DNA from: a virus
Virus genome (UHGV): UHGV-0036582
Reading direction: 5' to 3' (one strand)
DNA: 64,000 bases
A program made the position numbers and the translations under genes. A model generated the notes under the pieces. The model did not search any database. It was given only the letters and a program-made list of their open reading frames with translations, and had not been told where the DNA came from. Shown in pieces: positions 6,423 through 64,000 of the stretch. Position 1 is the stretch's first letter. Each line of letters opens with the position of its first letter.

Positions 6423-6548
6423 TGTTTCAGTTTCTTTATCAACCTACTAATTAACCTTTACACCGCAGCCGTAGGCATTTAGGCTATATCACATATAAGA
6501 AAACAAGTTGTTTCAGACGATAATTATATACGCAAAGGGAACTCTCCA

Positions 6549-7217
6549 ATGACCAAGATCTTTGTGGTTGGCGGCACAAAGGGCGGGCCTGGCAAATCCA
6601 CCGTTGCCCAGCAAATTGCCGTTTGCCTGAAAGTCAAAAAGAAGAAGAAGGTTTATATCACTGATATAGATATTCAGCGCACGACAACAAGCTGGTGTGA
6701 AGACCGTCGACAGAACGAAGACCTTGAGCTGATTCCTTTTGCATACGTTCAGGATGACATCATTAAGCACCTAAAATCGCTTCAGGGTAGAGCTGAGTTT
6801 GTAGTGGTAGATGCTGGTGGCTTTGACTCCGAAATTCAGCGACAAGCGATGCTGATGGCCGACGTTATCATTATCCCGCTGCGTCCTAAGCGTCGTGATT
6901 TGAAATCTTTACGTGACATCGATCCTATTATCGACAATGTTCGTAATGTAAACGATAAAGTGAAGGTCCGCGCGGTCATGAACCAGTGCCCGGCTTTGCC
7001 ATCACAAGTGTCTCGCATTTTGGCGGCTAAAGAGATTGTCGAGACGTTTGGCATCGAGTCTGCGCCAGTCAATTTATATAACCGCAACGTCTATGATGAT
7101 GCGGAAGAGTCTGGTCGTTCTATCTTTGAAATGACCGGTAGCGAGCGCGACAAAAAGGCGGAAGCCGAGTTTGAAGAATTTGTAGATTATCTGTTGAGTC
7201 TGGAGGAAGAAGAATAA
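6549..7217 (+). CDS. parA: ParA/MinD-family partition ATPase
   Basis: Deviant Walker A motif KGGPGKST in MTKIFVVGGTKGGPGKSTVAQQIA; 222 aa; followed by a small overlapping ORF as in type Ib partition operons. Confidence 0.8.
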   Translation: MTKIFVVGGTKGGPGKSTVAQQIAVCLKVKKKKKVYITDIDIQRTTTSWCEDRRQNEDLELIPFAYVQDDIIKHLKSLQGRAEFVVVDAGGFDSEIQRQAMLMADVIIIPLRPKRRDLKSLRDIDPIIDNVRNVNDKVKVRAVMNQCPALPSQVSRILAAKEIVETFGIESAPVNLYNRNVYDDAEESGRSIFEMTGSERDKKAEAEFEEFVDYLLSLEEEE

Positions 7218-7576
7218 TGTCCATGAAAATGGGTGACCTAGCAAAGCGCAAAGAGTCTGATGCACCGGCTAAGAACACAACTCCTTTGCGCCAACCAGTC
7301 AGACCACAGGGACGCCCGACTCGTGGCAAAGAGAAAATTAAAAGCCGCACAATGTCACTGGAGGACGAATACTTCGAACTGCTGGAGATGATGAAGTTCA
7401 TCCCTCGCTTCGAGAAGTTCACTCGTTCTGACGTGATTCGAGCAGCCATTTTCCATCTGGCAGAGAAGTCACCGCAGGAAATCGAGGACATCGTGAAATT
7501 GAATGAGGCGATCACCGCTGCCGATGTCACGATGCGTACCGATGAAATCAAACGAGAGTTGATGAAGAAAGGTTAA
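7217..7576 (+). CDS. Small DNA-binding partition partner, ribbon-helix-helix-like (ParG-like)
   Basis: 119 aa, start overlaps the parA stop; basic N-terminus; C-terminal segment RTMSLEDEYFELLEMMK...RSDVIRAAIFHLAEK has a strand-helix-helix pattern. Confidence 0.45.
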   Translation: MSMKMGDLAKRKESDAPAKNTTPLRQPVRPQGRPTRGKEKIKSRTMSLEDEYFELLEMMKFIPRFEKFTRSDVIRAAIFHLAEKSPQEIEDIVKLNEAITAADVTMRTDEIKRELMKKG

Positions 7577-7579
7577 AAA

Positions 7580-7614
7580 TCATGCATTGGCGTAATGTAC
7601 GCGCCAATGCATGA
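7580..7614. terminator. 13-bp inverted repeat between convergent genes, possible bidirectional terminator
   Basis: tcatgcattggcg / cgccaatgcatga arms with a 9-nt loop; no clear T-tract. Confidence 0.4.
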
Positions 7615-7628
7615 GTACAATGTCAGTT

Positions 7629-9421: not shown

Positions 9422-9464
9422 CTAATACTAGAAAACAATTTGTTTAAAAAACAAAGGAAAGCAC

Positions 9465-10805
9465 ATGACCGAACTTTGCCATACAGGACGCGGGCTGTCC
9501 GAAGAGTTTGATGAAGATTTTCAGAACAGATTGACGGCCTATTTTTGTCGTGATCACGAGTTTCTTACTCGTGCTGGAGATCTGGTTGTACCTAGCCAAT
9601 TTGCCAATGCGGCCAATGCCATATTGGTTAATATGGTTTCGGGCTATTACCGTATGTACAAGAGCGCGCCCTCTTCATCTGCGATTCTGGATATGCTTAA
9701 GCGTGCGAAACGCGATAAGACTATCCGTGAGGAACTATTCGCCGATGTTGTTGCTGCGTTTAAGCGCATCCTTGCAGAAAAATTGTCTGATACCTCGTAC
9801 ATGGTTGACCAGGTATCAACCTTCGCAAAAAGCGTAGCGTTTGATGATGCTCTGATTAAGGCTGCTGAACTGAAAGAGAAGGGCGACTTTCAGGGGGCGA
9901 TGGCAATCATGGCCAAGGTTCAGCAGATTGGATCGAACGAAGCGACCGGAATCTATGACTACTACACCTCCGCAAGTGAGCGATTGAAAGCGCGTGAATA
10001 TGAGGCTTCAGAGGAGTATGTGCCAAACAGCATTACAACTGGACTCCCTCTGCTCGATAGGTTGCTGTACCAAAAAGGCTGGGCGAAGCGTGAAATGGTG
10101 CTCTTCATGGGGTTCGCTAAATCCGGTAAATCGACCGCAATGGGTGAGTTTTCCATAAACGCAACGCTTGCTGGCTACAATGTTCTGTATCTCTCGCTGG
10201 AGGTTCACACCAACATTTTGTCCGACCGCTTTGATGCAAGATTGTCGGAGACGGAAATGTCCAAGCTGGTGGAACGGCGCGATGAAGTTCATCGTAAGTT
10301 GGCAGAGTTGGGAGCCACTAAGGGGATTGGTAGTTTGTGGGTTGTTGAGCGTCCGTCAGGAAGTATGTCACCGGCAGATCTGGACCGTATGCTTAACAGT
10401 ATGAAAGCCAATGGCATGGTGCCTGACATGGTTGTTGTCGACTACGCAGATTTGATGCGTGCCAGTTATGACCTTCGTGATGATCGCGCCAATATTCGTA
10501 GTATCTACACCGATTTACGTGCTCTTTATGACAAGCATAACGTTGCTGGGATCACGGCATCGCAGACAAACCGTGAAGGTGGCGCGTCAGAAGTTGCCAC
10601 AATGATGCACGCCGCCGATAACATCGAAAAAGTACGTATTGCTGACCTGGTAATAACGATCAACAAAACCGAAGAAGAAGAAGCGAAAGGAGAGGCTCGT
10701 CTCTACTTTGCTGGTTCACGTAACCAGCAGGGTGGGATCAGCATTCGCGTTAAACAAAACCTCGAACAAATGCGTTTCATTGAGCGAATCTTAGACGTTA
10801 CCTAA
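9465..10805 (+). CDS. DnaB-like replicative helicase
   Basis: 446 aa; Walker A GFAKSGKST; RecA-fold C-terminal domain with the DnaB-typical VVVDYADLM segment; conserved leader aaaggaaagcacATG. Confidence 0.75.
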   Translation: MTELCHTGRGLSEEFDEDFQNRLTAYFCRDHEFLTRAGDLVVPSQFANAANAILVNMVSGYYRMYKSAPSSSAILDMLKRAKRDKTIREELFADVVAAFKRILAEKLSDTSYMVDQVSTFAKSVAFDDALIKAAELKEKGDFQGAMAIMAKVQQIGSNEATGIYDYYTSASERLKAREYEASEEYVPNSITTGLPLLDRLLYQKGWAKREMVLFMGFAKSGKSTAMGEFSINATLAGYNVLYLSLEVHTNILSDRFDARLSETEMSKLVERRDEVHRKLAELGATKGIGSLWVVERPSGSMSPADLDRMLNSMKANGMVPDMVVVDYADLMRASYDLRDDRANIRSIYTDLRALYDKHNVAGITASQTNREGGASEVATMMHAADNIEKVRIADLVITINKTEEEEAKGEARLYFAGSRNQQGGISIRVKQNLEQMRFIERILDVT

Positions 10806-10886
10806 AAAATAAGCGTGGAGAACACCTCCACGCTTGATTCATTTGTGAAACAACTTTTCTTTTGCCAAACCACAAAAGAAAAACAC

Positions 10887-12068
10887 ATGAGCCTTTATGT
10901 TATATCAACATTTAGGTTGGTCACAATATTGCCTGTTAAAAGTGGAATTATCGTGAGCGAGCTGAAAGAGCTAATTGCCGAATTAGATTTTGAACAATGG
11001 TTGGATACTGAAGGTATCGTTTATCGACGTGGAGGCGTGAGTGCTCGCGGTCGTGAAGTGAATATCAAGGAATGTCCGGTATGCGGCAGCTCCAACTGGA
11101 AGGTATATTTCAATCTGACCAGTGGCGTCGGCAAATGCTTTGCTGGTGATCATCCCGAAGAGATTCAGTTCAATAAGCTGGTCTTCCTCAAGCACTACAG
11201 CGGCAAATCACGACGACAGTTCGAGGAATATGTGCAGAACGCTCTTCTTTCCCAGGGGTGGGCACCAAAGAAAGAAGAGATAGTGCTTGCAAGCACAGTC
11301 GAGTTAGAGGGACCAGTTGCCCTCCCTCGTCATTACGAACTTCCTATAGATGGCCGTCTTCCAGACTATCTGGTTGAACGAAACATATCGCCTGAAATGG
11401 CAAAGTATTTTGACCTACGATACTGCGTCGAAGGCAAGCACGCTTATGTAGATCCGTATACAGATCAGGTAAAAGGACAGATATTCGATATGCGAATACT
11501 CATACCGGTTTACGATCTGGATGGGGTAATGAAGACATTTCAGGGACGAGACATTACCGGTACAGCAGAACGTCGCTACCTCTTTCCTATGCAGCTTCCA
11601 GCTTCAGGTAAGTTTCTCTACAACGGCCATAATGCAGTCGGCAAACAGACGGTAGTTGTCTGTGAGGGGGCGTTCGATGTTATGGGGGTCAAACGAGCTA
11701 TTTTTGACGAAGAAACATTACGTGATTACGTGGAACCAATAGGAACGTTCGGGATGCATCTATCTGGCAACACCACTCAGGATGCAGAAGATCAGCTGGG
11801 CGCGTTCCTGACGCTCAAGGCGCGTGGATTACGTAATGTGATCATGATGTGGGATAGTGAAAAGCAAGCTATACGCAACACTATGGCCGCAGCTAGGCGA
11901 CTCACAAGTATTGGCCTTAATGTCAAAGTTGCGTGTTTGGGCGAGGAAGGACTCGACCCCGGCGATGCGACACCGGGGCAGATTATCAAAGCCTACTATT
12001 GCGCAAAACCTTATTCACGACAGCTTGAACTCTTAAGCAAGGTGAAAGGCATTGCAGCACTAGTTTGA
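10887..12068 (+). CDS. DNA primase (zinc-ribbon plus Toprim)
   Basis: Start set at the ATG at 10887, preceded by aaaagaaaaacacATG; Zn-ribbon CPVCGSSNWKVY...C..DH; Toprim-like VVVCEGAFDVMG; lies directly after the helicase. Confidence 0.7.
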   Translation: MSLYVISTFRLVTILPVKSGIIVSELKELIAELDFEQWLDTEGIVYRRGGVSARGREVNIKECPVCGSSNWKVYFNLTSGVGKCFAGDHPEEIQFNKLVFLKHYSGKSRRQFEEYVQNALLSQGWAPKKEEIVLASTVELEGPVALPRHYELPIDGRLPDYLVERNISPEMAKYFDLRYCVEGKHAYVDPYTDQVKGQIFDMRILIPVYDLDGVMKTFQGRDITGTAERRYLFPMQLPASGKFLYNGHNAVGKQTVVVCEGAFDVMGVKRAIFDEETLRDYVEPIGTFGMHLSGNTTQDAEDQLGAFLTLKARGLRNVIMMWDSEKQAIRNTMAAARRLTSIGLNVKVACLGEEGLDPGDATPGQIIKAYYCAKPYSRQLELLSKVKGIAALV

Positions 12069-17509: not shown

Positions 17510-17513
17510 AATT

Positions 17514-21934: not shown

Positions 21935-22032
21935 CCCCTCTTCTCCCTGCGCGAATGGCTTAGTTCCCTGTTCGCGCAGTGCTACATTAAACATACTAGT
22001 AAATAATTTGTTTTCATAACAAAGGATTAGCC

Positions 22033-24132: not shown

Positions 24133-24227
24133 ACAAAACAGCCTTAATGATAAGTAACCACTTACGATAGATAATGATATATTTATATAAGAAGTTGAAC
24201 GCTCATTAGAGAACAAAGGAAAAACGC

Positions 24228-25463
24228 ATGACGACTACTGCACTGCAAAATGAAAAAAATCCTTCTGATTACCTTGTTTGCAAGTGGTGCGGCAAATCAT
24301 TTCACTATTTTAAGTCCCATGTAGCCAATGGTAATTGCGAGGGCATTCCTGAGTCAGTAAAAGATGCCGATCCTGACACCGTACTGAAAATGTACACAAC
24401 GCAGTTTCCAGATGAACCAACGCTATCGAAAAAGGCACTTGATGCAATTCAAGCTAAACGTGCCGAGCAAAAAAGCGAAATGGCCAAATCTTCTGGCTTG
24501 ACCAGTAGCCCTGGCTACACAGGCACAGTTGAGTACAAGACAGATCTGGTCGCAGCTCACGAACTGCTAAACGTAACGGTGGAAGAACTCGGAACAAAAC
24601 GTGGGACGCCGCTCATGGTTAGCGTCAACGTCAATACGCCGTATCCAGAGTTCGTTCCCGAAGTGAAGAAAGGCTACGTATATGGCGACTTCGAACTGAT
24701 CAAAGATATTTTCATGATGCTTGAACTTGGCATACCTGGCTATTTGTGGGGTCATGCAGGAACAGGCAAATCGTCATTGCCTACACAGCTATGTGCTTTG
24801 CTCAATCGTCCGTTGATCCGTGCCCAACATACAGCATCAATGGAAGAGGCACATGTTACGGGGCAAATTCTGGCGCGTGATGGCTCTACGTATTTCGAAC
24901 CTGGCTTGCTTGCGCTCGCAATGAAGCATGGCTGGGTTTACCTCGCAGATGAATACGACTTTGCGTTTCCACAAATTCTTGGCGTGTATCAGCCAGTGCT
25001 GGAAGGTGAAGCGTTGGTCATCAAAGAGGCAACTCCAGAATGGCGTCGCATTACTCCGCATGAACGGTTTGCTTTCATTGGCACTGGCAACACGAACGGA
25101 TCTGGTGATGAAACCGGCTTGTACCAGGGTACAAACATCCAGAACGCCGCGAACTTTTCGCGTTTTGGCATCGTTTCGAATGTGAAATACATGAGCAAAG
25201 ACGCAGAGATCAACATGTTGACAAATGCAGGCATCGTGGATGAATACGCTGAAAAGATGGTTAAGTTTGCCGGTATCGTTCGCGATGGATACGAAGAACA
25301 CCTTATTAGTCAGCCAATTGGCCCTCGTGAACTTTTGTTGTCGGCCAAGATTGGAATGATGCGAGGCGACTTTGTGACAGGTATTGAGCGTTCTTTCATT
25401 AACAAACTCCCTTCAGCTTCTGCACAAGCGGCTCGTGAAGTTGTTCAAAAAATATTTGGTTAA
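24228..25463 (+). CDS. MoxR/CobS-like AAA+ ATPase with N-terminal zinc-ribbon
   Basis: Walker A GHAGTGKSS, Walker B-like WVYLADEYD; N-terminal CKWCG...GNCEG cysteine cluster. Confidence 0.7.
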   Translation: MTTTALQNEKNPSDYLVCKWCGKSFHYFKSHVANGNCEGIPESVKDADPDTVLKMYTTQFPDEPTLSKKALDAIQAKRAEQKSEMAKSSGLTSSPGYTGTVEYKTDLVAAHELLNVTVEELGTKRGTPLMVSVNVNTPYPEFVPEVKKGYVYGDFELIKDIFMMLELGIPGYLWGHAGTGKSSLPTQLCALLNRPLIRAQHTASMEEAHVTGQILARDGSTYFEPGLLALAMKHGWVYLADEYDFAFPQILGVYQPVLEGEALVIKEATPEWRRITPHERFAFIGTGNTNGSGDETGLYQGTNIQNAANFSRFGIVSNVKYMSKDAEINMLTNAGIVDEYAEKMVKFAGIVRDGYEEHLISQPIGPRELLLSAKIGMMRGDFVTGIERSFINKLPSASAQAAREVVQKIFG

Positions 25464-25465: not shown

Positions 25466-25669
25466 GTGCGTAAAGGATGTTTCGGCTCTCTTATCGCTGC
25501 TTCTGAAACTGGTAAGGCTTGTCTGGTGTGTCCAGACAAGCCCGATTGTCACCAATCAGCAAAAGAAGTTGCGATTTCGATGCATGGGAAGTTCGTAGGC
25601 TTCCCCAATGACAAAATCAAAAAAACCAGAAAGGTAAAAACACATGAAGGCACTGATGGTTCGAACTGA
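25466..25669 (+). CDS. Hypothetical small Cys-rich protein
   Basis: 67-aa ORF with C..C...C.C..C pattern; overlaps the dnaE start. Confidence 0.3.
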   Translation: MRKGCFGSLIAASETGKACLVCPDKPDCHQSAKEVAISMHGKFVGFPNDKIKKTRKVKTHEGTDGSN

Positions 25670-29196: not shown

Positions 29197-29287
29197 CTTA
29201 TCCCCTCATATCCCCTATCCTCGAACTCCTTGCCTTATCATCACAATGATATAATCAATATAAAATGATAAGTAAAAAGGAAAGCAC

Positions 29288-29719: not shown

Positions 29720-29836
29720 TTTTTGATAGATAATAAGTAAGTACTGATCTATCATTTAACAGCTCGAAAGAGCCACGAATGAACGAAAGCCCAACGCGCA
29801 TAGCGCCATCGGCCAAATCACAACAAGGAGAAACAC

Positions 29837-33242: not shown

Positions 33243-33304
33243 TCTCTTGAAAATATATAAGTACTTACTTATTATTTTCGCATAACAACCACATAGGAAA
33301 ACAC

Positions 33305-36943: not shown

Positions 36944-36998
36944 TCGCCTATTCATAACTAACAAAATAAGTAAACACTAACCACAAAAGGAAAAACAC

Positions 36999-40677: not shown

Positions 40678-40931
40678 CCCTCCAGATCGTATATTGGCGT
40701 AGATAGAATCTACGCCTCCTCAAAATAGCTCTCATAGCGTTCTACAGTGATCCTGTCTTATTTTTAGTCATACAGACAAGCAAAGTTGCGCCACAATAAA
40801 TAGGTATATACTTACTTATAAATTTTGTATATTAAGATGCTCGTTTCATTCCTAACATACCGTTATGCATAGTTGTTTACCTTCTCATTGCTCTTAAAAT
40901 TTGTATCAAAATAACCACAAAGGAAAAACAC

Positions 40932-42017
40932 ATGACTTTGCCATACGGCGTCATTTCTGACTGCCACTACCACAAATGGGATGCGTTCTCCACGACGAAC
41001 GCAGAGGGGCTTAACTCCAGACTTGAAATACAGTTGGAAGCAACGAAAGAAGCAGCCATCGCCATGAAGAAGGCCGGTTGTAAGTACATGTTGGTTGCCG
41101 GTGATACATTTCACGTCCGAGGAACTGTGTCCCCTTCTGTTTTGCATTACGTAACTGAAACGTACAAGTGGATTATCAACGAGCTTGATCTGACAGTAGT
41201 AATGCTGGCCGGTAATCACGATCTTGAAACCAACGATTCAGTATATAGCGCCAACGCAGCAGCATCGCTGAGTTCTATCGGCGTGGTAATCGTATGTGGC
41301 AAACGCCCACACTCAATAAAAATTGGTGATGTGACTGTCCACCTGATTAGCTGGCGTAACAATCATGCGGAGCTTATCAGCGATCTGAAAGCATTACGTA
41401 AGAGCGTAGAAGGTGATAATCATGACGTTGTTATCCATACATCCATTAACAAAGCCATTCCAACAATGCCTGACGTCGGTATCGATGCGCAGGAGTTAAA
41501 GGATATCGGCTTTCGTCTCGTGCTTAGTGGGCATTACCACAACCACAAAGAGGTCATTCCTGGAGTTATCAGTGTCGGTGCGCTGACCCATCAAAATTGG
41601 GGAGATGTTGGATCTCTGGCTGGTTACATGATCGTAAACCCGGACGGCAGTTTCAGTCACTACGAAACCAGTGCGCCTAAATTCATTAACCTGGAAGATT
41701 ATGTTGCCGATGACCAAATTCGCGGCAACTACGTGCGTTTCCGCGCCGTAATTGAGAACGATGAAGAAGGCATTAAGTACCAGAACATCCTCAAAACAAT
41801 GGGTGCAAAAGGTGTCGTGTGCAACTTCATCCGTAAGTCATCAATGATGGAAGGGACAGCAAGCGCAACGGAAACCAGCAAAATCGATAGCCTGGGAGAG
41901 TCGGTATCTGCTTATTGCAAGATTGTCCACGATACTGACGGCGGATTTGATCTGAGCAAGTTGGATATTTTGTGTCAGGAAATCCTCACCGAAGCGGAGA
42001 GTTCGGAGGCTGTGTGA
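40932..42017 (+). CDS. sbcD: SbcD/Mre11-like nuclease (calcineurin-like metallophosphatase)
   Basis: Metallophosphatase motifs GDTFHVRG, LAGNHD and GHYH; directly precedes the SbcC-like ATPase gene. Confidence 0.75.
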   Translation: MTLPYGVISDCHYHKWDAFSTTNAEGLNSRLEIQLEATKEAAIAMKKAGCKYMLVAGDTFHVRGTVSPSVLHYVTETYKWIINELDLTVVMLAGNHDLETNDSVYSANAAASLSSIGVVIVCGKRPHSIKIGDVTVHLISWRNNHAELISDLKALRKSVEGDNHDVVIHTSINKAIPTMPDVGIDAQELKDIGFRLVLSGHYHNHKEVIPGVISVGALTHQNWGDVGSLAGYMIVNPDGSFSHYETSAPKFINLEDYVADDQIRGNYVRFRAVIENDEEGIKYQNILKTMGAKGVVCNFIRKSSMMEGTASATETSKIDSLGESVSAYCKIVHDTDGGFDLSKLDILCQEILTEAESSEAV

Positions 42018-47879: not shown

Positions 47880-47986
47880 CATATGGTGGGGGATATCCCC
47901 ACCTTCTCTTTGATTTGTAAGCCTTGTTTAAACACATAAGATAACAACTTGTTTAAACGCACCAAAAAAAGAAAAAGGAAAAACAC

Positions 47987-49129
47987 ATGTCATATTCAAC
48001 GTTCCGTTTGGGTGCTAATGATGCAACCAAAGAGCCTATGTTCCTCGGACAATCTGTCAACGTGGCACGTTACGATCAGCAAAAATACCGTGATTTTGAA
48101 AAGTTGATTGAACGTCAATTGTCTTTCTTCTGGCGGCCGGAAGAAGTTGATATTTCGAGCGATCGTATCGACTTCAACACGAAGCTGCGGGACCACGAAC
48201 GTCACATTTTTCTGAGCAATCTCCGTTATCAAACGTTACTCGATTCAGTTCAGGGACGTAGCCCAAATGCAACGCTGCTGCCGCTTATCTCTATTCCTGA
48301 ACTGGAAACGTGGGTTGAAACGTGGTCTTTCTCTGAGACTATCCATAGCCGTAGCTACACCCACATTATTCGTGGCATGGTGGACGATCCGAGTATTGTT
48401 TTTGACGGTATTGTTACGGATGAAGAAATCATCAACCGAGCGATCAGTATCTCTGCTGAATATGACAGGCTTTATGGGATGACATGCGAGCGCCAGTCGT
48501 TAGGTGAGAAGGAGTTTGAACGTCTGTACGTAAATGAATATGGCTGGGAGCCATACCCTTTGCATCGTCAGCTTTTCCGCACGTTGGTGTCCATTAATGC
48601 GCTTGAGGCGATCCGTTTCTATGTAAGTTTTGCATGTACGTTTGCCTTTGGCGAACGGAAGTTGCTTGAGGGTAACACCAAAATTATGCGCTTTATTGCC
48701 CGTGATGAAGCTCTGCATTGCGAAGGAACTGAACGCATGATCCGCTTCATGCGTACCGGTCGCGAAGGTTTATTGTGGAAAGAGATTGCTGCTGATGAAG
48801 AAAACGTCATTTACGACACCATGAAATCAGTCGCCGAACAAGAAATGAACTGGGCAGACTATCTCTTCAAAGACGGTTCGATGATTGGTTTAAACGCGGA
48901 TATTCTGAAGACCTATGTAAAATACCGCACCAATCTGGCTATGAATCGTCTTGGCCTGAAGGCTTTATTTCCAGAAGTTACCACAGATCCGCTGGTCTGG
49001 ATGAACAAGTGGTTGTTAACCGACACACTGCAAATTGCACCACAAGAGGCAGAGCAAAGCACATATCTGGTAGGTCAGATCGATTCTACCGTGGATAAGG
49101 CTTCTCTAAGCCAGTTTGCAGACCTGTAA
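47987..49129 (+). CDS. nrdB: Ribonucleoside-diphosphate reductase small subunit (class Ia)
   Basis: 380 aa; di-iron/radical-site region [19 protein letters not shown] and IARDEALH. Confidence 0.9.
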
Positions 49130-58106: not shown

Positions 58107-58199
58107 CGGTTGTTAGTGCATATGCATTGACCGTCTCTGCGTAAGCAATTTATGTAACCAGAAAACAATTTGTTTTGACAAATAGCAAAAGGAAAACAC

Positions 58200-58625
58200 A
58201 TGTTAGGTTTCTTCAAAAAGAAAACTCGTAAAGCTGTTATCGAAGTCAAAAAAATGGAGAACCGTGATGCGGTTGAGGCCACCGTGTGGGGCGCGTACAT
58301 GATCTCCTATGCCGACGGCACATGTGACGCAAAAGAAATTGCCATTCTTGAGAAGACAATTGCAGCTCTGCCTGCGTTTTCTCCGTTTGCTGGTGAAATT
58401 GCCCAAATGAGCGCCAATATCCGTGCTCGTTACGAAGCGTCCCCTCGTTCTGCTAATGCACAGGCTATTCGTGAGCTGTCTGATATTGCGGGTACTCCAG
58501 AGGCGGTCGATGTTCTGTGTCTGTGCCTTGATATTGCCGATCAGGACGGCATTGGTGAACAAGAAGAGCAGGCACTGAAAAAGATCGCCCAGGCGCTTCA
58601 GTTGTCACTGGATGCTTATCTCTAA
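58200..58625 (+). CDS. TerB-like domain protein
   Basis: 141 aa; helical protein with paired acidic motifs (SYADGTCDAKE and DIADQDGIGEQEE) resembling the TerB fold; conserved leader aaaaggaaaacacATG. Confidence 0.4.
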   Translation: MLGFFKKKTRKAVIEVKKMENRDAVEATVWGAYMISYADGTCDAKEIAILEKTIAALPAFSPFAGEIAQMSANIRARYEASPRSANAQAIRELSDIAGTPEAVDVLCLCLDIADQDGIGEQEEQALKKIAQALQLSLDAYL

Positions 58626-58812: not shown

Positions 58813-58922
58813 GTTGACCGAAATAGAGAGTTTGCACCTTTACGTTTAGCTTGCTCCCCTTTTATGCCACATCACAATAAAGCCAATAAGAAAACAACTT
58901 GTTTAAGCATTAGGAAAAACAC

Positions 58923-59492
58923 ATGTGCAAGAAATGCAAAGCGATAGCTGATGAACAAAACGCCTTATTCGAAGAAATGGATGCTAATGAACTGGTCAAA
59001 ATGTTAGCCATTCTTCGAGGAATAGAAGACGTTTCCATATTTGAGAGAGTGGTTACAGCACTTAATTTTGAGTCCACCTTTGAAGAGCCAACTCAGGTTG
59101 TAGCTTTAGCACATCATTTCGGTGTTCATTATCTTGCTGAAAAAGAGCGCGCTGATAAGTTGCAGGCGACTTTGGATATGGTGAGCGAGACTCAACGAAC
59201 TGATGACACTAACAAGAGTGAGGCGATTATTGCCAGCAAAGATCGTGAAATTGCTGGGCTTAAATCCTCTCTAACGATGTTGATGTCTGCGTTCAATCTT
59301 ATGTCTTCTCAGGCGGGTTATAAAATGCCATCACTAAACAGCGATGATCCGATGGCCGTTCGTCAGCTTTTGGGAGCAATGGCCGACCAACTCGACGACA
59401 CAAAGAGTCGGCTTGAAGACATGATGCGTGAGTTAAGCCATCGACATAACCTCGCAACACAGCCACACAAAGCCTTTCAAAGCTCTAATTGA
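58923..59492 (+). CDS. Hypothetical protein
   Basis: 189-aa ORF with leader ggaaaaacacATG. Confidence 0.45.
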   Translation: MCKKCKAIADEQNALFEEMDANELVKMLAILRGIEDVSIFERVVTALNFESTFEEPTQVVALAHHFGVHYLAEKERADKLQATLDMVSETQRTDDTNKSEAIIASKDREIAGLKSSLTMLMSAFNLMSSQAGYKMPSLNSDDPMAVRQLLGAMADQLDDTKSRLEDMMRELSHRHNLATQPHKAFQSSN

Positions 59493-60446: not shown

Positions 60447-60508
60447 CAAATACCTTTATTTAAAGGATTGCCTGTTAATTTCTATTTAGCACCTTTTCAT
60501 TTTTGAAA

Positions 60509-60550
60509 TAATTGCACCATTAAACAAATCTTTTCTTAATGGTGCAATTA
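60509..60550 (+). promoter_or_regulatory. Perfect 15-bp-stem hairpin covering the translation-initiation region of the methyltransferase gene
   Basis: taattgcaccattaa ... ttaatggtgcaatta; the right arm ends at the A of the ATG at 60550. Confidence 0.5.
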
Positions 60551-62235
60551 TGAATACAGCTCTTTCCATCATCGACGATGCCAACTCAAACACTGCTATC
60601 GATTATCGTCAGGAAATGAACGTCATCCACGAAATTGTGGCCGAGTGCGAGAAGGAGATCGCCTTCATGTATCAGGTTCACGACTTCGTTTATGGAGACG
60701 AACGCCACAACATGATTAATCGCCTGCTGCAACTGAACCACCGACCAGATGAAGAACGCTCACGTTTGAATCGAGCTTGGCTGGATAAAGTCGATCTGGA
60801 ATGGGTGAAACAGAATATTTGGGCCGAGTACTGGAGGAAGGTCACGGATATGACTAACGTTCTGCTGATCATGCCAGCTTCCCGTCGCGACGAGTGGCGT
60901 GAGCAGTTTATCGAGGGTAAGCAGGAAGTCATCAAAACTGACAGAACCGGCTATCAGATGAAGGTAAAAGAGTTCGTTGGTGTACCGGAGTTCAAAGCAG
61001 AAACGGTCATACCCACGATGCTTAATTTGCTGAATGACAGGCACAAATATCTCTCTGAGCGCGTGTATGGCTTGTTTAAGGCGCTGAGTCCTGCGCACAA
61101 GACAAATAAGACAAACGGTTTCAGCGAACGTCTGATAATCGCTGACTGCATTTCTGATTTCTGGCGGGACAGCGTTAGTGTGAACTATCGCAAAGAGGAC
61201 TATATCGACGATCTGCGTGTCTTGCTTCATTTCTTCGCGCACAAAGAATTTATTACCATCAACCGCACTGCTGAGGTGCTATCAGCTGCGTATCGGGCAA
61301 ACGACTGCCAGACCGGTGACTGGATGAACGTCGATGGAAATCTGATGCGCGTGAAGATGTTCAAGAACGGCAACGTTCACTTTGAAATACATCCTGACGT
61401 GGCCTGGAAGTTGAATGAGGTGCTGGCTTACAGTATGCCTGCTGCAATCCCCGCGCCATGTCGCACCGCGCCAAAAACACGGGCACCAAAGCAGTTCGGG
61501 TTAATCCAGAAGACGATCTCCGTGCCGGTTCGCACTGCGCTTCGTGACGGGCGATTGAGCAAAGACAAAGGCGTATGGTACTTCTCTGATTCAGCTCTCC
61601 AGAAGTCGCAGGTGGAAGAGCTTGAGCGCACACTGAGCTTCATTGGCGGCGTGCAGGAGAAAAAGCACTGGCAGTTCCCGTATGACATCGTCCATACGCT
61701 AAATACGATTGTGGCTACCGGTTTAATACCGGATACAAAATCACACCAGTTCTACCCTACCCCACGCTTGATTGCTGAGTACGTTGCCAGAGCCACTGAA
61801 TTGAAGTCTGGTGAGAAGCTGCTGGAGCCTCAAGCCGGACGTGGGGATCTTCTGGCCTATATTAACGCCGATCTGGAAGATGTTACCTGCATAGAAATCG
61901 CACCTCTCTTCGCTGATATCCTGCGTGGAAAAGGGTATACGAACACGATTTGCTGCGACTTCATAAAGTGGTCTGAGGACAACGTAGGTTATCAGTTCGA
62001 CAAAATCGTTATGAACCCGCCGTATTCGCTTGGTCGTCATAGAGAGCACACGCTGGCTGCGCTGGGGCATCTGAAAGTCGGCGGGCGTCTTGTAGCAGTA
62101 TTGCCGGGCACTGCGCCAATACTGGACTGGATGACGATGGATAATTACGTTTATGCCAGAGGGAAGTCGTTTACCAACGAGTTTGAAGACACAGGGATCA
62201 CAGTCAGCGTATACGTTTTCAAACGCGTTAAATGA
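60550..62235 (+). CDS. Orphan DNA methyltransferase (N6-adenine type) fused to a large N-terminal domain of unknown function
   Basis: C-terminal 150 aa carry QFYPTPRLIAEYV, SAM-binding LLEPQAGRGDLL and catalytic IVMNPPY; the N-terminal 400 aa or so have no recognisable motif. Confidence 0.7.
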   Translation: MNTALSIIDDANSNTAIDYRQEMNVIHEIVAECEKEIAFMYQVHDFVYGDERHNMINRLLQLNHRPDEERSRLNRAWLDKVDLEWVKQNIWAEYWRKVTDMTNVLLIMPASRRDEWREQFIEGKQEVIKTDRTGYQMKVKEFVGVPEFKAETVIPTMLNLLNDRHKYLSERVYGLFKALSPAHKTNKTNGFSERLIIADCISDFWRDSVSVNYRKEDYIDDLRVLLHFFAHKEFITINRTAEVLSAAYRANDCQTGDWMNVDGNLMRVKMFKNGNVHFEIHPDVAWKLNEVLAYSMPAAIPAPCRTAPKTRAPKQFGLIQKTISVPVRTALRDGRLSKDKGVWYFSDSALQKSQVEELERTLSFIGGVQEKKHWQFPYDIVHTLNTIVATGLIPDTKSHQFYPTPRLIAEYVARATELKSGEKLLEPQAGRGDLLAYINADLEDVTCIEIAPLFADILRGKGYTNTICCDFIKWSEDNVGYQFDKIVMNPPYSLGRHREHTLAALGHLKVGGRLVAVLPGTAPILDWMTMDNYVYARGKSFTNEFEDTGITVSVYVFKRVK

Positions 62236-62296
62236 TAGGTAAATACTTACCTAATTTGTGTAAGAATGTAGTTACTAAACGATAAGAGAAAAACAC

Positions 62297-63001
62297 ATGA
62301 ACAACCTCCAGTTAGAGCATTTTAACGTCACAGGCCATTCTGATTTTCCTTTCAAGTTTACATTGAAAGGTTATGCAGAGGATGCGGTAGGCCAGATCAT
62401 TATTGATAAAGGCATCGTTAAGTTTGAGGGGGATTTTGATGAATCCGCGAAAACATTCATAGACTTCGTTGCCAAACGTTGGAGCGAGCAATGGAAAAAC
62501 CTGGAAAAGCGCGCCAATGAGTTTGATCGGTTCATGGATGCAATGGATACAGCAAAAGAGGCTCTTGATGCCGGGACTCCGTTAGATCTGGAGTCACTTT
62601 TCAACGGCGAAGTGGCCTCTGCGATGTTTGCCACCATGTTCGCGGGTGAGTTCGTCCGCAGCGGTGCCAAAAACTACCTTGAGCTGGATTACAACGTCCC
62701 TGCAATTGGCGATTTCGTCGTTACCATCCAACGCAAAGAAGGTAAGACGCCAGGTGAACGCGTCGCAGAGCTTGAGGCCGTTGTGGATCAGCGTAACGGA
62801 GAGTGTGACCGTTTGATCAACGAGCTTCATGCACTTCGGGAAGAAAGAATATGTGCGGGTAGCAATACACGTAATGCAGCGGATATCTACTTCCAGTTAG
62901 TTGAGGAATGCCAGATTCCACCAGGTGGCTCTCTTGTCGATTACGTCAGACATTTAATGGCGGAAGTTAACTCCAGCCATAAAGATGGTGAGGTGCGCTG
63001 A
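62297..63001 (+). CDS. Hypothetical protein
   Basis: 234-aa ORF with leader gagaaaaacacATG. Confidence 0.45.
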   Translation: MNNLQLEHFNVTGHSDFPFKFTLKGYAEDAVGQIIIDKGIVKFEGDFDESAKTFIDFVAKRWSEQWKNLEKRANEFDRFMDAMDTAKEALDAGTPLDLESLFNGEVASAMFATMFAGEFVRSGAKNYLELDYNVPAIGDFVVTIQRKEGKTPGERVAELEAVVDQRNGECDRLINELHALREERICAGSNTRNAADIYFQLVEECQIPPGGSLVDYVRHLMAEVNSSHKDGEVR

Positions 63002-63381
63002 TGTTTGGCATTGACGCACAGCGTATAGCCGCTTTTGCAAAAAGCCCTCTTGATAATCCCTTGTCTCGTAGTGAGCAAATGGAGCTGGCAAGGCTTTTTC
63101 TTCACATTCAAAAACAGGCAGACATTTTCAATAACATGCCTAATCAACCTATTCTGGATGGTCACATCCAGATGGTCATTAACAGTCATGAGAAAGGCTG
63201 GGCTGCAATCGTCCCCTGCACAATTACATACAAGTTGGCGAAAGAGGTTCAAGAGTTTCGAAAAGCCAGTGTCGAATCGGAGTCTACCAAAGCCGCAATA
63301 AACACTCTTATTCGCATGGGGTTCACATGGACCGGTGGAGCCTACTGGCAAGCACCTCACCCCATTTTATCCGGCAATTAG
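63001..63381 (+). CDS. Hypothetical protein
   Basis: 126-aa ORF overlapping the previous stop. Confidence 0.45.
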   Translation: MFGIDAQRIAAFAKSPLDNPLSRSEQMELARLFLHIQKQADIFNNMPNQPILDGHIQMVINSHEKGWAAIVPCTITYKLAKEVQEFRKASVESESTKAAINTLIRMGFTWTGGAYWQAPHPILSGN

Positions 63382-63500
63382 ACGCTACAAATCCTTCGGC
63401 ATGAATAAATAAAGGCCATAAGTTGTGGCCTTAAATAAATTGTTTTCTACCTTTTCTTATTTGTGAAAATAACCACAACTAGAAAACAACGGAGTTAAGA

Positions 63501-64000
63501 ATGTCTAGTATTTCCGAAGCTCATATGTTCGCCGCTGGCGCTCATGGTGGCGTTGGTCAGAAAAGAAAATATACCGGCGAAGACTACATCAACCACCCGG
63601 TTGCTGTCCGAGAGATTGTTGCATTGCATGACGGAACCGTGGAGATGCAAATCGCGGCGCTTCTGCATGATGTGGTCGAAGACACCCATGTAACCATAGA
63701 GATGGTTCGTGATCACTTCGGTGAGCGCGTAGCTGAAATGGTTCAGGCTCTGACCAACATTGCAAGGCCAGAAGACGGCAATCGAATACAGCGTTTCATC
63801 ATCAATGTCCGGGAGCTGGAGCAAAATCTCGACATGCAGACGCGCATGATCAAGCTGGCTGACCTGCTCGACAATACCTCTTCTATCGTGAGTCGCGATC
63901 CCGAGTTTTCAGCTGTCTACCTCGCAGAGAAAGAACTGATGCTGGACGTACTCTTTCACGGCAAAGAGATTGGTGCCAATGCTGATGTTGTCGAGTACAT
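63501..64000 (+). CDS. HD-domain hydrolase of the RelA/SpoT type (small alarmone hydrolase-like), 3'-truncated by the window edge
   Basis: Not in the ORF track because it runs off the window. ATG at 63501; translation MSSISEAHMFAAGAHGGVGQKRKYTGEDYINHPVAVREIVALHDGTVEMQIAALLHDVVEDT...KLADLLDN matches the HD pyrophosphohydrolase signature. Confidence 0.6.
   Translation, partial: MSSISEAHMFAAGAHGGVGQKRKYTGEDYINHPVAVREIVALHDGTVEMQIAALLHDVVEDTHVTIEMVRDHFGERVAEMVQALTNIARPEDGNRIQRFIINVRELEQNLDMQTRMIKLADLLDNTSSIVSRDPEFSAVYLAEKELMLDVLFHGKEIGANADVVEY

What the first reader, a model, noticed from the sequence alone, without database searches (positions are those of the whole stretch)
6499..63503. Conserved upstream elements: GAAAACAA-n-TTGTTT dyad and AAAGGAAAAACACATG leader
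Many genes begin with an almost identical leader ending in ...aaaggaaaaacacATG (for example starts at 9465, 10887, 29288, 36999, 40932, 47987, 58200, 58923, 62297). Several are also preceded by the dyad GAAAACAAnTTGTTT (near 6499, 9431, 22002, 34404, 47941, 58161, 58890, 63434). This points to a shared promoter or operator and a standardised translation-initiation region for one temporal class of genes.
Basis: seen in the sequence. Interest (0 to 1): 0.5.

Follow-up and report, generated by a model that had tools for sequence, protein, structure and literature searches.

The report
Repeated operator and ribosome-site cassettes, phage-plasmid
This SSU5-like phage-plasmid of E. coli reuses two short control sequences in front of its replication and early genes, a 13-base palindrome over the transcription start and a near-identical A-rich ribosome-landing site; both are real and conserved in relatives but uncharacterised, and they probably keep these genes off while the phage lives as a plasmid.

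Summary
Both motifs are real, far above chance, and confined to non-coding DNA upstream of + strand genes. The window is an SSU5-like phage-plasmid, 95-99% identical to Escherichia phage Cyrano.

The dyad AAACAAnTTGTTT is the most over-represented palindrome in five related phage-plasmid genomes. It is the core of an oriented element, AGAAAACAAnTTGTTTAA, inside a repeated sigma-70-type promoter cassette. It lies at about +5 to +14 from the inferred start. Some cassettes carry a second, inverted copy over the -35 region, 51 bp upstream. Downstream genes are near background in published lysogen RNA-seq. Best reading: a dispersed operator for a repressor made in the plasmid state. The binder is not identified. 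The leading candidate is the small conserved protein after parA (7217-7576).

The leader (A/C)AAAGGAAAA(A)CAC-ATG is a separate module: a Shine-Dalgarno sequence plus a fixed, A-rich, unstructured spacer. It occurs on 11-19 unrelated early or middle genes per genome and never on late genes. It may be the target of a conserved FljA-family protein, modelled here as tandem Hfq-like domains.

A distant Moellerella relative lacks the dyad, the leader and the FljA homologue. I found no published description. This is a new variant of a known kind.

The parts
6498..6515 (+). Operator copy AGAAAACAAGTTGTTTCA (perfect dyad 6501-6513) in front of parA (ATG 6549). Putative promoter: TAGGCA 6472-6477, 16 nt spacer, TATAAG 6494-6499, abutting the dyad.
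   Evidence: The roughly 65 nt upstream region is identical in SSU5 and nearly so in Klebsiella pJN2-26. The promoter hexamers are my reading of the sequence, not a tool prediction.
9430..9447 (+). Operator copy AGAAAACAATTTGTTTAA (perfect dyad 9433-9445) in front of the DnaB-like helicase (ATG 9465). Putative promoter: TTGATC 9402-9407, 16 nt spacer, AATACT 9424-9429.
   Evidence: In the five-genome alignment A4 the TTGA of the -35 is conserved. The -10 varies in sequence but always fits nAnnnT, and it always abuts an invariant AGAAAACAAnTTGTTTAA.
21998..22015 (+). Operator copy AGTAAATAATTTGTTTTC (1 mismatch in the dyad, 22001-22013) in front of the CobT-like gene (ATG 22033).
   Evidence: SSU5 and pJN2-26 have perfect dyads at the orthologous place.
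34403..34420 (+). Operator copy AGAAAACAATTTGTTAAA (1 mismatch, 34406-34418) in front of the gene at 34435. It is preceded by a terminator hairpin (GGCGTCCAGTTGGACGCC + T-run) and a -10-like TATTAT at 34389-34394.
47939..47956 (+). Operator copy AGATAACAACTTGTTTAA (1 mismatch, 47942-47954) in front of nrdB (ATG 47987). An extra half-site TTGTTTAAAC lies about 26 bp upstream.
   Evidence: The same variant TAACAA is kept in SSU5.
58160..58177 (+). Operator copy AGAAAACAATTTGTTTTG (perfect dyad 58163-58175) in front of the TciA/TerB-like gene (ATG 58200). Putative promoter: TTGACC 58127-58132, 17 nt spacer, TTATGT 58150-58155.
58889..58906 (+). Operator copy AGAAAACAACTTGTTTAA (perfect dyad 58892-58904) in front of the gene at 58923.
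   Evidence: The protein is only 32-36% identical to its SSU5 and Klebsiella counterparts over its first 50 residues, yet both the dyad and the leader are kept.
63430..63500 (+). One complete canonical cassette. It consists of: the upstream inverted copy CTTAAATAAATTGTTTTCT (63430-63448); CCTTTT; an extended -10 TGtGAAAAT (63462-63470); AACCACAACT; the half-site AGAAAACAA (63481-63489); GGAG; and the ATG at 63501 (HD-domain gene running off the window).
   Evidence: The same architecture, with 51 bp between the two copies, is seen at Cyrano 93114/93165, SSU5 88319/88370 and hvKP859 72498/72549.
40873..40934 (+). Decayed cassette in front of sbcD. It keeps the half-site TTGTTTACCTTCT, the -10-like ATCAAAAT and AACCACA. 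The downstream operator is replaced directly by the leader AAAGGAAAAACACATG.
   Evidence: Conserved in SSU5 and pJN2-26.
60480..60552 (+). Decayed cassette in front of the DUF4942 gene (ATG 60550). It has CCTTTT, GAAATAAT, and a degenerate dyad AAACAAATCTTTT at 60522-60534. SSU5 and pJN2-26 have the intact cassette here.
9452..9467 (+). Leader AAAGGAAAGCACATG-type translation initiation region: helicase.
10874..10889 (+). Leader AAAAGAAAAACACATG. Its ATG is in frame with the primase and lies 22 codons upstream of the GTG annotated in the relatives.
24215..24230 (+). Leader AAAGGAAAAACGCATG: CobS/AAA-like gene.
25631..25646 (+). Leader AAGGTAAAAACACATG: DNA polymerase III alpha.
29275..29290 (+). 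Leader AAAGGAAAGCACATG: UvsY-like gene.
29824..29839 (+). Leader CAAGGAGAAACACATG: gp32-like SSB.
33292..33307 (+). Leader ATAGGAAAACACATG: small membrane protein.
36986..37001 (+). Leader AAAGGAAAAACACATG (exact).
40919..40934 (+). Leader AAAGGAAAAACACATG (exact): sbcD.
47974..47989 (+). Leader AAAGGAAAAACACATG (exact): nrdB.
58187..58202 (+). Leader AAAAGGAAAACACATG: TciA/TerB-like gene.
58910..58925 (+). Leader TTAGGAAAAACACATG.
62284..62299 (+). Leader AAGAGAAAAACACATG: Ead/Ea22-like gene.
7217..7576 (+). Candidate dyad-binding protein (119 aa), encoded directly after the small ParA (6549-7217).
- It has a disordered basic N-terminus.
- Its core, RPQGRPTRGK..IKSRTMS.EDE...FTRSDVIRAAI, is invariant among homologues that are only 49% identical overall.
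   Evidence: - Alignment A2.
- Expressed in the lysogen at 89, against a median of 9.8.
- Its own promoter carries the dyad.
- Present in all complete dyad-bearing genomes.
- No Pfam or PDB match, and a poor model. The DNA-binding role is therefore an inference.

Best explanation
The two motifs are separate regulatory modules of SSU5-like phage-plasmids.

**1. The dyad is the core of a DNA operator.**
- The full element is AGAAAACAAnTTGTTTAA. It is built into a repeated sigma-70-type promoter cassette.
- In canonical copies it starts 10 nt after an extended -10 (TGnGATAAT), so its centre is near +14.
- In the replication-gene promoters of this window the -10 abuts it, so its centre is near +5.
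- Some cassettes carry a second, inverted copy over the -35 region, 51 bp upstream.
- A dimeric DNA-binding protein encoded by the element and present in the plasmid (lysogenic) state binds these sites. It blocks RNA polymerase at a dispersed set of early, replication, nucleotide-metabolism and late-operon promoters. It also autoregulates the par operon.
- The most likely binder is the small conserved protein encoded after parA (7217-7576). That would make the system work like the omega or KorB type of partition protein that doubles as a global repressor.

**2. The leader is a stereotyped translation-initiation region.**
- It has a Shine-Dalgarno AAGGA, a fixed A-rich spacer and CAC before the AUG. 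It is almost free of secondary structure.
- It gives efficient initiation on early and middle genes.
- It probably doubles as a translational operator for the conserved FljA-family, Hfq-fold protein of these elements.

**Shown versus inferred.** Shown: the motif statistics, architecture, conservation, silence in the lysogen, and the fold of the FljA homologue. Inferred: the transcription start positions, repression, and the identity of both binders.
For: **Statistics and position**
- Enrichment of both motifs.
- All eight dyads are non-coding and lie upstream of + strand genes.

**Dyad**
- It is the top-ranked perfect 6+6 palindrome in the window, Cyrano, SSU5, pJN2-26 and hvKP859, with 4, 9, 11, 11 and 15 perfect copies.
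- The cassette consensus has a -10 at a fixed distance from the dyad.
- The upstream copy is the exact reverse complement of the downstream copy, flanks included. The spacings of 51 bp and 25 bp recur in four genomes. This points to recognition of duplex DNA.
- As RNA the dyad folds at only -0.2 to -0.7 kcal/mol.
- In the helicase promoter the -35 TTGA and the operator are invariant in five genomes. The -10 changes sequence but stays nAnnnT.
- In LF82 lysogen RNA-seq, 12 of 15 dyad-preceded Cyrano genes read 5.7-12.9, against a median of 9.8. This holds despite near-consensus extended -10 elements. The par operon reads 50-89 (PMC9928086 supplementary table).

**Candidate dyad binder (7217-7576)**
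- Expressed in the lysogen, sits under a dyad-bearing promoter, and has an invariant basic arm and core across 49%-identical homologues.

**Leader**
- The 9-mer AAACACATG occurs 9-13 times per genome on the + strand only.
- A looser pattern (purine-rich stretch, A-rich spacer, CACATG) finds 12 sites in the window, 11 in SSU5, 11 in pJN2-26 and 19 in hvKP859.
- No Cyrano gene at 135-28157, the structural and lysis block, has it.
- Leader regions are 62% A and less folded: -2.8 against -5.6 kcal/mol, p=0.002.

**FljA homologue**
- Pfam PF03614, E=1e-80.
- Present in all SSU5-like phages, including those of non-flagellate Klebsiella, and in 835 plasmids.
- The model has two helix-plus-five-strand domains, pLDDT 83. 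The best PDB matches are Hfq: target-normalised TM-score 0.65-0.83, rmsd about 1.0-1.4 A for the best of them.
- The Salmonella/Citrobacter fliC leader ends AAGGAAAA-N4-ATG, the same core and spacing as the phage leader.

**Contrast genome**
- The Moellerella phage-plasmid lacks the dyad, the leader and the FljA homologue together.
Against: **Promoters and repression**
- No transcription starts are known.
- The simple sigma-70 scan did not call promoters at the three window dyads it covered, and it found fewer promoter-like sites than shuffles did. Promoter assignments in the window rest on weak hexamers that I read by eye.
- Silence in the lysogen would also follow from a missing activator.

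**Candidate dyad binder (7217-7576)**
- It has no detectable DNA-binding domain and only a low-confidence model.
- pMT1 lacks it yet keeps six dyads, though pMT1 is a decayed element.
- Moellerella keeps a homologue with the same putative strand but has no dyads.

**FljA-leader link**
- The hvKP859 group keeps an identical leader although its FljA homologue is only 36% identical.
- The E. coli K-12 fliC leader does not resemble the phage leader.
- Between orthologues the leader is only slightly better conserved than the rest of the intergenic DNA: 0.83 against 0.76.
- The co-absence in Moellerella is a single phylogenetic contrast.
Confidence: 0.55

Rival explanations
1. The dyad is a positive promoter element. 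An activator made early after induction binds it, or a phage-modified RNA polymerase recognises it, and it defines a middle temporal class.
For: - Window copies have only weak -10 and -35 hexamers, and the consensus scan did not call them.
- The genes are silent in the lysogen, which fits a missing activator equally well.
- Several small conserved candidate DNA-binding proteins are not expressed in the lysogen: the 71-aa protein at 15915-16130, and the 88-aa protein at Cyrano 108051 just upstream of the late operon.
Against: - The site lies downstream of or abutting the -10, at about +5 to +14. That is an unusual position for activation.
- Canonical copies already have TGnGATAAT extended -10 elements, which normally work unaided, yet they are silent in the lysogen.
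- The second copy overlaps the -35 region.
- parA, which needs expression in the plasmid state, carries a perfect copy and is expressed.
- No RNA polymerase or sigma gene is annotated in these genomes.
Confidence: 0.15
2. The dyad acts in the mRNA, as part of the 5' untranslated region. It would form a bipartite RNA target with the leader, bound by the FljA-family Hfq-fold protein.
For: - Downstream copies lie inside the predicted 5' leader of the mRNA.
- The Salmonella/Citrobacter fliC leader, the known target region of FljA, contains CAAGTTGT about 15 nt upstream of AAGGAAAA-N4-AUG. This is almost the arrangement seen at 58892-58925.
- The dyad, the leader and the FljA homologue are lost together in Moellerella.
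Against: - Upstream copies sit ahead of the -35 and are the reverse complement of the downstream copies, flanks included. As RNA the two would differ.
- Both halves are equally conserved, but the RNA hairpin is negligible.
- Eight genes have the leader without a dyad and three have the dyad without the leader.
- The E. coli fliC leader lacks both motifs.
Confidence: 0.1
3. The leader is nothing more than a strong ribosome-binding site. It was spread among genes by duplication or recombination of intergenic cassettes and kept because unstructured A-rich leaders translate well. No dedicated regulator reads it.
For: - It contains a good Shine-Dalgarno sequence at normal spacing.
- It is 62% A and weakly folded.
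- Between orthologues it is barely more conserved than neighbouring DNA.
- It is unchanged in a lineage whose FljA homologue is only 36% identical.
- A-rich and CA-rich sequences are known translational enhancers (established knowledge, not tested here).
Against: - The spacer ACAC directly before the AUG is fixed in 11-19 unrelated genes per genome, and a Shine-Dalgarno sequence alone does not require a fixed spacer.
- It is absent from the late genes, which also need high expression.
- It vanished completely, together with the FljA homologue, in the Moellerella relative.
Confidence: 0.4
4. The dyads are primarily partition (centromere-like) sites for the ParA system, or binding sites for a host protein. 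Effects on transcription would be incidental.
For: - A perfect copy lies in an extremely conserved region just upstream of parA.
- The candidate binder is the gene after parA.
- Dispersed sites are known for KorB-type systems (established knowledge).
Against: - Small-ParA centromeres normally consist of repeat arrays. No cluster of half-sites exists in any genome examined.
- Every copy has a fixed register relative to a -10 element and a start codon.
- I could not recall any enterobacterial regulator whose consensus site matches the dyad. This is from memory only.
- The motif is lost in Moellerella, which still has ParA.
Confidence: 0.1

Closest known systems
Phage P1 C1 repressor regulon (dispersed operators controlling ban, ref, dam, ssb, lpa and other genes)
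   Same: A phage-plasmid whose lytic and replication functions are each fronted by a copy of one short operator scattered over about 100 kb. The operators overlap sigma-70 promoters, so a single protein can hold many operons off in the plasmid state (established knowledge of P1).
   Different: P1 operators are asymmetric 17-mers (ATTGCTCTAATAAATTT) read by C1. Here the site is a 13-bp palindrome with a free centre, has no sequence similarity to the P1 operator, and no C1 homologue is annotated. P1 late genes use a separate activator (Lpa), whereas here the late-operon leader also carries dyads.
Global plasmid repressors that double as partition proteins: KorB/KorA of RK2 and omega of pSM19035
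   Same: - KorB OB is a 13-bp palindrome, TTTAGCSGCTAAA, repeated at many promoters. Omega controls copy number, partition and toxin-antitoxin promoters and is also the centromere-binding partner of a small ParA.
- Here a perfect operator precedes parA, and the best candidate binder is the small protein encoded after parA.
   Different: - Neither the binder nor any partition role of the dyads is demonstrated.
- The candidate protein has no detectable ParB, KorB or ribbon-helix-helix signature.
- Omega sites are heptad arrays, not single palindromes.
- The targets here are phage lytic genes.
FljA-fliC translational repression in Salmonella flagellar phase variation; Hfq-Crc repression at A-rich ribosome-binding sites
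   Same: - The element encodes a clear FljA-family protein (PF03614, E=1e-80). Its modelled domains superpose on Hfq.
- FljA blocks translation through the fliC 5' leader (PMC2652032).
- The Salmonella fliC initiation region and the phage leader share AAGGAAAA-N4-AUG.
- Hfq with Crc represses translation by binding A-rich motifs at ribosome-binding sites (established knowledge; PDB 8bvj is among the hits).
   Different: - No binding data exist for the phage protein.
- Its gene lies outside this window.
- The targets would be a dozen or more phage genes rather than one host gene.
- The E. coli fliC leader does not match.
Phage T4 translational repressors (RegA, gp32, gp43) acting on early replication-gene mRNAs
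   Same: The leader-bearing genes are the T4-like replication and recombination set: gp32-like SSB, UvsY, primase, helicase, nrdB and sbcD. They have A-rich, unstructured initiation regions, which is the kind of target RegA and gp32 recognise (established knowledge).
   Different: No RegA homologue is annotated. The leader sequence differs from RegA sites. The comparison is by analogy only.

Membership tests
Sigma-70 promoter with extended -10 | A TGn + TATAAT-like hexamer at a fixed distance from the regulated element, with a -35 TTGACA-like hexamer 16-18 bp upstream | tested here: inconclusive
   - Canonical cassettes meet it: TGnGATAAT, GAAAAT or TATTAT lies exactly 10 nt before AGAAAACAA. 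This holds in the cassettes outside the window and at 63462-63470.
- In the helicase promoter TTGAnn-16-nAnnnT is maintained in five genomes.
- The generic scan called none of the three dyad sites in the stretch it covered, and several hexamers are weak.
Sigma-70 promoter with extended -10 | A mapped transcription start about 7 nt downstream of the -10 | not testable with these tools
   No 5'-end data are available. The published LF82 RNA-seq table gives only per-gene counts.
Repressor operator (DNA) | Two-fold symmetric site with both halves equally conserved and a free centre | tested here: met
   AAACAA-n-TTGTTT. Information content is equal on both halves and the central base varies.
Repressor operator (DNA) | Overlaps the core promoter or the early transcribed region; auxiliary copies are phased with it | tested here: met
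   Centre at about +5 or +14 from the inferred start. A second copy lies over the -35, 51 bp away, in four genomes. The positions depend on inferred start sites.
Repressor operator (DNA) | Regulated genes are off when the repressor is present | tested here: met
   Twelve of 15 dyad-preceded genes are at background in the LF82 lysogen. The par operon is partially on, as expected for autoregulation. This is correlative only.
Repressor operator (DNA) | An identified protein that binds the site | not testable with these tools
   Candidates were ranked by phylogenetic profile, expression and conservation. None was shown to bind.
P1 C1 operator family | Match to the asymmetric 17-bp consensus ATTGCTCTAATAAATTT, and presence of a C1 homologue | tested here: not met
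   The dyad has a different sequence and different symmetry. No C1-like protein is annotated in Cyrano, SSU5 or pJN2-26. It works like this family but is not a member.
Shine-Dalgarno translation initiation region | A purine-rich stretch complementary to the 16S 3' end, 5-9 nt before the start codon of a real gene | tested here: met
   AAGGA or AGGA lies 7-9 nt before the ATG in 13 window genes. Complementarity to the 16S 3' end is judged from established knowledge.
Known RNA families (Rfam) | A covariance-model match at gathering score over the leader or dyad regions | tested here: not met
   Only three tRNAs, at 17343-17586, reach threshold in the whole window.
FljA (Pfam PF03614, repressor of phase-1 flagellin): applies to the proposed leader-binding protein, which is encoded outside the window | Full-length match to the family profile above the curated cut-off | tested here: met
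   Cyrano 100780-101301: E=1e-80, 269.9 bits against a cut-off of 24. It is 39-48% identical to relatives that include one encoded on an E. coli chromosome and one named phase-1 flagellin repressor.
Ribbon-helix-helix / ParG-type centromere-binding protein: applies to the candidate at 7217-7576 | A detectable RHH domain by sequence or fold | tested here: inconclusive
   - No Pfam, PDB-sequence or Foldseek match.
- The monomer model is poor, pLDDT 65. It shows a coil followed by helices at 48-60 and 70-84. That is compatible with strand-helix-helix in a dimer but is not proof.
- Its position after a small ParA fits.

The most novel reading that the evidence does not exclude
SSU5-like phage-plasmids would silence their lytic programme in two layers, using proteins borrowed from plasmid and host-surface biology.

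1. A small partition-operon protein acts as a genome-wide DNA repressor through the dispersed palindrome.
2. An FljA-family, tandem-Hfq-fold protein acts as a regulon-wide translational repressor through the common A-rich leader.

If so, FljA, known only as the single-target repressor of flagellin phase variation, would belong to a family whose main role is phage-plasmid gene control. The Salmonella fljA-hin module could then be a domesticated phage-plasmid part.
Probability: 0.15. Interest if true: 0.75.

Novelty: new variant of a known kind. Interest (0 to 1): 0.5.

Why it matters
SSU5/pHCM2/pMT1-type phage-plasmids are common in clinical Enterobacteriaceae. The two marker proteins used here each hit about 800 plasmid records. 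These elements also carry resistance genes (PMC9600943). I found no description of their lysis-lysogeny circuitry.

- **A concrete cis-regulatory map.** The operator and leader consensus, their positions and a short list of candidate binders turn the question of how these elements stay quiet as plasmids into a handful of gel-shift, reporter and deletion experiments.
- **Annotation.** The motifs improve start-codon calls, for example for the primase.
- **Classification.** They mark membership of a sub-lineage: the motifs are present in the SSU5, pKpn-like and pMT1 groups and absent in Moellerella.
- **FljA.** The Hfq-like fold predicted for the FljA family is, as far as I could find, not described. 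It offers a structural rationale for its action on mRNA.

Tried and rejected
- **Chance or base composition.** Rejected by shuffles and by strand and position bias.
- **RNA hairpin for the dyad.** Rejected: folding energy is about zero.
- **Known RNA families.** None found.
- **The XRE-type repressor next to the integrase (21084-21470) as dyad binder.** Judged unlikely.
  - Its own divergent control region has no dyad. It carries the second palindrome, GGTAAGTnCTTACC, which is conserved in Klebsiella.
  - The gene is missing from SSU5, which keeps more than 18 dyads.
  - It is only 48-57% identical where the dyad is invariant.
- **The 92-aa protein at Cyrano 103221 as binder.** Rejected: it is absent from hvKP859, which has the most dyads.
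- **The FljA homologue as the duplex-DNA binder.** Made unlikely by its Hfq-like fold.
- **Half-site arrays (centromere or iterons).** None found.
- **IMG/VR pattern scan.** Not informative.
- **Structure route for the 7217-7576 protein.** Failed: poor model and no fold hits.
- **The truncated copy in a 188-kb Klebsiella plasmid.** It is an IS-disrupted fragment and uninformative.
- **The original FljA papers (PMC1347349 and the PNAS 2006 paper).** Not held by the library. The FljA binding site in fliC mRNA could not be checked against the motif.
- **Orthologue conservation of the leader against its flanks.** Gave only a small difference.
- **Condition-dependent RNA-seq changes (macrophage against LB).** I eyeballed these for both palindrome classes. 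They looked heterogeneous, so I did not use them.

Full report
**What the window is.** The 64-kb window is 95-99% identical to Escherichia phage Cyrano (the phage-plasmid pLF82 of E. coli LF82), to CMS-2020a and to PhiR41_1. It is about 77-81% identical to Salmonella phage SSU5 and to Klebsiella relatives. It corresponds to Cyrano coordinates of roughly 22.9-86.4 kb. The gene order is: tail fibre, lysis, parA, helicase, primase, ligase, three tRNAs, integrase with an XRE-type repressor, cobT/cobS-like genes, Pol III alpha, UvsY, gp32-like SSB, RecA, RepA, SbcCD, NrdAB, ThyX and a run of small genes. For comparison I fetched six further genomes: Cyrano, SSU5, Klebsiella pJN2-26, a more distant Klebsiella plasmid (hvKP859, NZ_CP101792), Yersinia pestis pMT1 and a Moellerella plasmid.

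- The leader, with up to 2 mismatches, occurs 10 times against 0.1 expected. Every copy is on the + strand and ends in a start codon.
- Its last nine bases, AAACACATG, occur 11 times on the + strand and never on the - strand.
- The dyad occurs at 8 places, against about 0.5-1.4 expected.
- All eight dyads are in non-coding DNA in a window that is 89% coding, P of about 2e-8.
Four further leader genes exist: 24228, 25644, 29837 and 33305.

**The dyad is part of a larger repeated cassette.**
- An unbiased count of perfect 6+6 palindromes puts AAACAA-n-TTGTTT first in the window and in four related genomes.
- Aligning all copies shows an oriented element, AGAAAACAAnTTGTTTAA.
- In the canonical copies it is preceded, exactly 10 nt upstream, by an extended -10 (TGnGATAAT, GAAAAT or TATTAT), and further upstream by CCTTTT.
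- Several cassettes have a second copy 51 bp upstream. That copy is the precise reverse complement of the first, flanks included: CTTAAACAAnTTGTTTTCT.
- The window holds one such complete cassette, at 63430-63500, and two decayed ones, at 40873-40934 and 60480-60552.
- The canonical cassettes are densest outside the window, in front of small early genes at Cyrano 93-98.5 kb. Two dyads 25 bp apart also precede the terminase operon.

**In the window's replication genes the -10 abuts the dyad.** The five-genome alignment of the helicase upstream region shows four features in order:
1. a conserved TTGA at -35;
2. a 16-nt spacer;
3. a -10 whose sequence differs in every lineage (AATACT, TAGTAT, TACGAT, CATAAT) but always keeps A at position 2 and T at position 6;
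4. an invariant AGAAAACAAnTTGTTTAA.

This turnover with preserved function is what a real sigma-70 promoter looks like. It places the dyad centre near +5. In canonical cassettes the centre is near +14, and the upstream copy lies near -38. These are repressor positions, not activator positions. They rest on inferred start sites. The simple consensus scan did not call these promoters.

**The dyad is recognised as DNA, not RNA.**
- Both halves are equally conserved and the centre is free.
- The upstream and downstream copies are reverse complements. That is the same object on duplex DNA but two different RNAs.
- As RNA the site folds at only -0.2 to -0.7 kcal/mol.
- No Rfam family matches anything here except three tRNAs.

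**Functional correlate from published data.** The LF82 study (PMC9928086) gives per-gene RNA-seq counts for Cyrano in the lysogen.
- The median is 9.8.
- Of the 15 dyad-preceded genes, 12 read 5.7-12.9. These include the genes behind near-consensus extended -10 cassettes.
- The helicase reads 21 and one early gene reads 25.5.
- The par operon reads 50-89.

Strong-looking promoters that are silent in the lysogen argue for repression. One dyad-bearing operon that is moderately on is what an autoregulated repressor operon looks like. This is correlation, not proof.

**Who binds the dyad?** I profiled every Cyrano protein against the other genomes and combined the result with lysogen expression.
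- **XRE-type repressor beside the integrase (21084-21470).** Expressed in the lysogen, but an unlikely binder.
  - Its own control region carries a different palindrome, GGTAAGTnCTTACC, which is conserved in Klebsiella, and no dyad.
  - The gene is absent from SSU5.
  - It is only 48-57% identical where the dyad is invariant.
- **92-aa protein at Cyrano 103221.** Missing from hvKP859, which has the most dyads.
- **119-aa protein after parA (7217-7576).** The best fit.
  - It is expressed in the lysogen (89).
  - It sits behind a perfect dyad.
  - It occurs in every complete dyad-bearing genome.
  - Its basic arm and core (RPQGRPTRGK..IKSRTMS.EDE...FTRSDVIRAAI) are invariant among homologues only 49% identical overall.
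  - Its position and its coil-helix-helix pattern suggest a ParG/omega-like ribbon-helix-helix protein. No sequence or fold search supports that, and the model is poor.
  - Counter-evidence: pMT1 lacks it and keeps six dyads. The Moellerella homologue keeps the putative strand although the dyads are gone, apart from an AGAAAACAA half-site at its parA.

I therefore rank it first but give it well under even odds.

**The leader.** Its consensus across genomes is (A/C)AAAGGAAAA(A)CAC-AUG.
- The upstream 20 nt of leader genes are 62% A and 5% T.
- The -30..+18 region folds at -2.8 kcal/mol, against -5.6 for other genes (p=0.002).
- It serves replication, recombination and nucleotide-metabolism genes and some small early genes.
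- It never serves the structural or lysis genes.
- It is kept at orthologous genes whose proteins have diverged to about 35% identity.
- Averaged over orthologues, however, it is only slightly better conserved than flanking DNA: 0.83 against 0.76.

The telling feature is the identity of the spacer among unrelated genes. A Shine-Dalgarno sequence alone does not require a fixed spacer.

**A candidate reader of the leader.** All SSU5-like elements encode a clear FljA-family protein (PF03614, E=1e-80). This includes elements in non-flagellate Klebsiella and in pMT1.
- I modelled a 98%-identical homologue of the phage-plasmid protein from an 18-sequence alignment. The result is two tandem helix-plus-five-strand domains, pLDDT 83.
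- Each domain superposes on Hfq, with target-normalised TM-score 0.65-0.83 and rmsd about 1.0-1.4 A for the best matches.
- An Hfq-like protein fits an A-rich single-stranded target and does not fit a DNA palindrome.
- The Salmonella/Citrobacter fliC leader ends ...CAAGTTGTAATTGATAAGGAAAAGATCATG. It shares AAGGAAAA-N4-AUG with the phage leader, and also an 8-mer of the dyad.
- The Moellerella relative has lost the FljA homologue, the leader (0 copies of AAACACATG) and the dyad together.
- Against the link: the E. coli fliC leader does not match. hvKP859 keeps the leader with a 36%-identical FljA homologue. The Moellerella case is a single contrast.

I put the FljA-leader link at about one in four.

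**Comparison with known systems.** Functionally this resembles three known systems:
- the dispersed C1 operators of P1;
- the global KorA/KorB or omega regulons of plasmids;
- for the leader, FljA-fliC, Hfq-Crc and the T4 RegA/gp32 translational repressors.

It is not a sequence member of any of these operator families. I found no paper describing regulatory sites of SSU5/pHCM2/pMT1-type elements.

**Verdict.** The features are real. This is a new variant of a known kind of regulation, and of moderate interest.

Noticed in passing
window 8650, 13219, 16578, 19468, 37294, 40797-40818, 45500, 50080, 53326, 55052, 57266, 62236; also 21501-21514, 24150 and 33258: A second dispersed palindrome family with consensus ATAGGTAAGTACTTACCTAT.
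- The pattern TARGTA-N6-TACYTA has 13 matches against 0.3 expected.
- It often starts TGATAAGTAAGTAA, which gives stop codons in all three frames.
- It sits just after one gene and 10-60 nt before the next.
- Its core, GGTAAGTnCTTACC, lies at the start of the transcript of the XRE-type repressor (21084-21470) and is conserved in Klebsiella.
- It could be the operator set of that repressor, or an RNA hairpin.
- It is present in all genomes examined, including Moellerella.
   Followed up: partly
Cyrano 100780-101301 (L003:780-1301, minus strand); outside the window: The FljA-family protein is predicted to be two tandem Hfq/Sm-like domains (pLDDT 83; the best PDB matches are Hfq). No solved structure of the family was found by sequence search. 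Most family members sit on contigs of about 105-112 kb, that is, on phage-plasmids. Relatives that include one on an E. coli chromosome and one named phase-1 flagellin repressor are 39-48% identical.
   Followed up: partly
window 10887 versus about 10953: The primase probably starts at the leader-preceded ATG at 10887. That is 22 codons upstream of the GTG annotated in Cyrano and SSU5. The leader is conserved at this place in the window, SSU5 and pJN2-26 and in one more distant Klebsiella plasmid.
   Followed up: partly
Cyrano 57-134, SSU5 56-133, pJN2-26 38628-38682; outside the window: The late (terminase) operon is preceded by dyads. Cyrano and SSU5 have two copies 25 bp apart; only one copy was seen in pJN2-26. 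A terminator-like hairpin (GAGCGCATGGACGCGCTC + T-run) follows, directly before the terS start codon. This suggests anti-termination control of the late genes.
   Followed up: no
window 19986-21934; absent from SSU5: The module of integrase, XRE repressor and a 70-aa divergent gene is present in the window, Cyrano, pJN2-26, hvKP859, pMT1 and Moellerella. It is missing from phage SSU5. SSU5 may be a derivative that has lost an immunity function.
   Followed up: partly
window 60505-60549: In front of the DUF4942 gene the operator has decayed. An inverted repeat, TTGCACCATT...AATGGTGCAA, now brackets it and ends at the start codon, with no obvious Shine-Dalgarno sequence.
   Followed up: no
window 17343-17586: Three tRNA genes in tandem. 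This stretch matches the tRNA-Thr/Asn region of phage P7 at 94% identity.
   Followed up: no
window 32139-33212 versus Cyrano 55065-57404: The RecA/UvsX-like gene is 357 aa here, similar in size to the SSU5 gene. It is annotated as 779 aa in Cyrano. Cyrano may carry an insertion, possibly an intein or a fused ORF.
   Followed up: no
Cyrano 89270-89310; outside the window: A LexA box (TACTGTATGTGTATACAGTA) lies directly upstream of the UmuD-like gene. That gene is well expressed in the lysogen, at 148.
   Followed up: no
window 14553-14561: A leader-like sequence, AAAGAAACACATG, lies inside the end of the gene preceding the ligase, 37 nt before the ligase start. It is conserved in SSU5 but not in pJN2-26. 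Its meaning is unclear.
   Followed up: no
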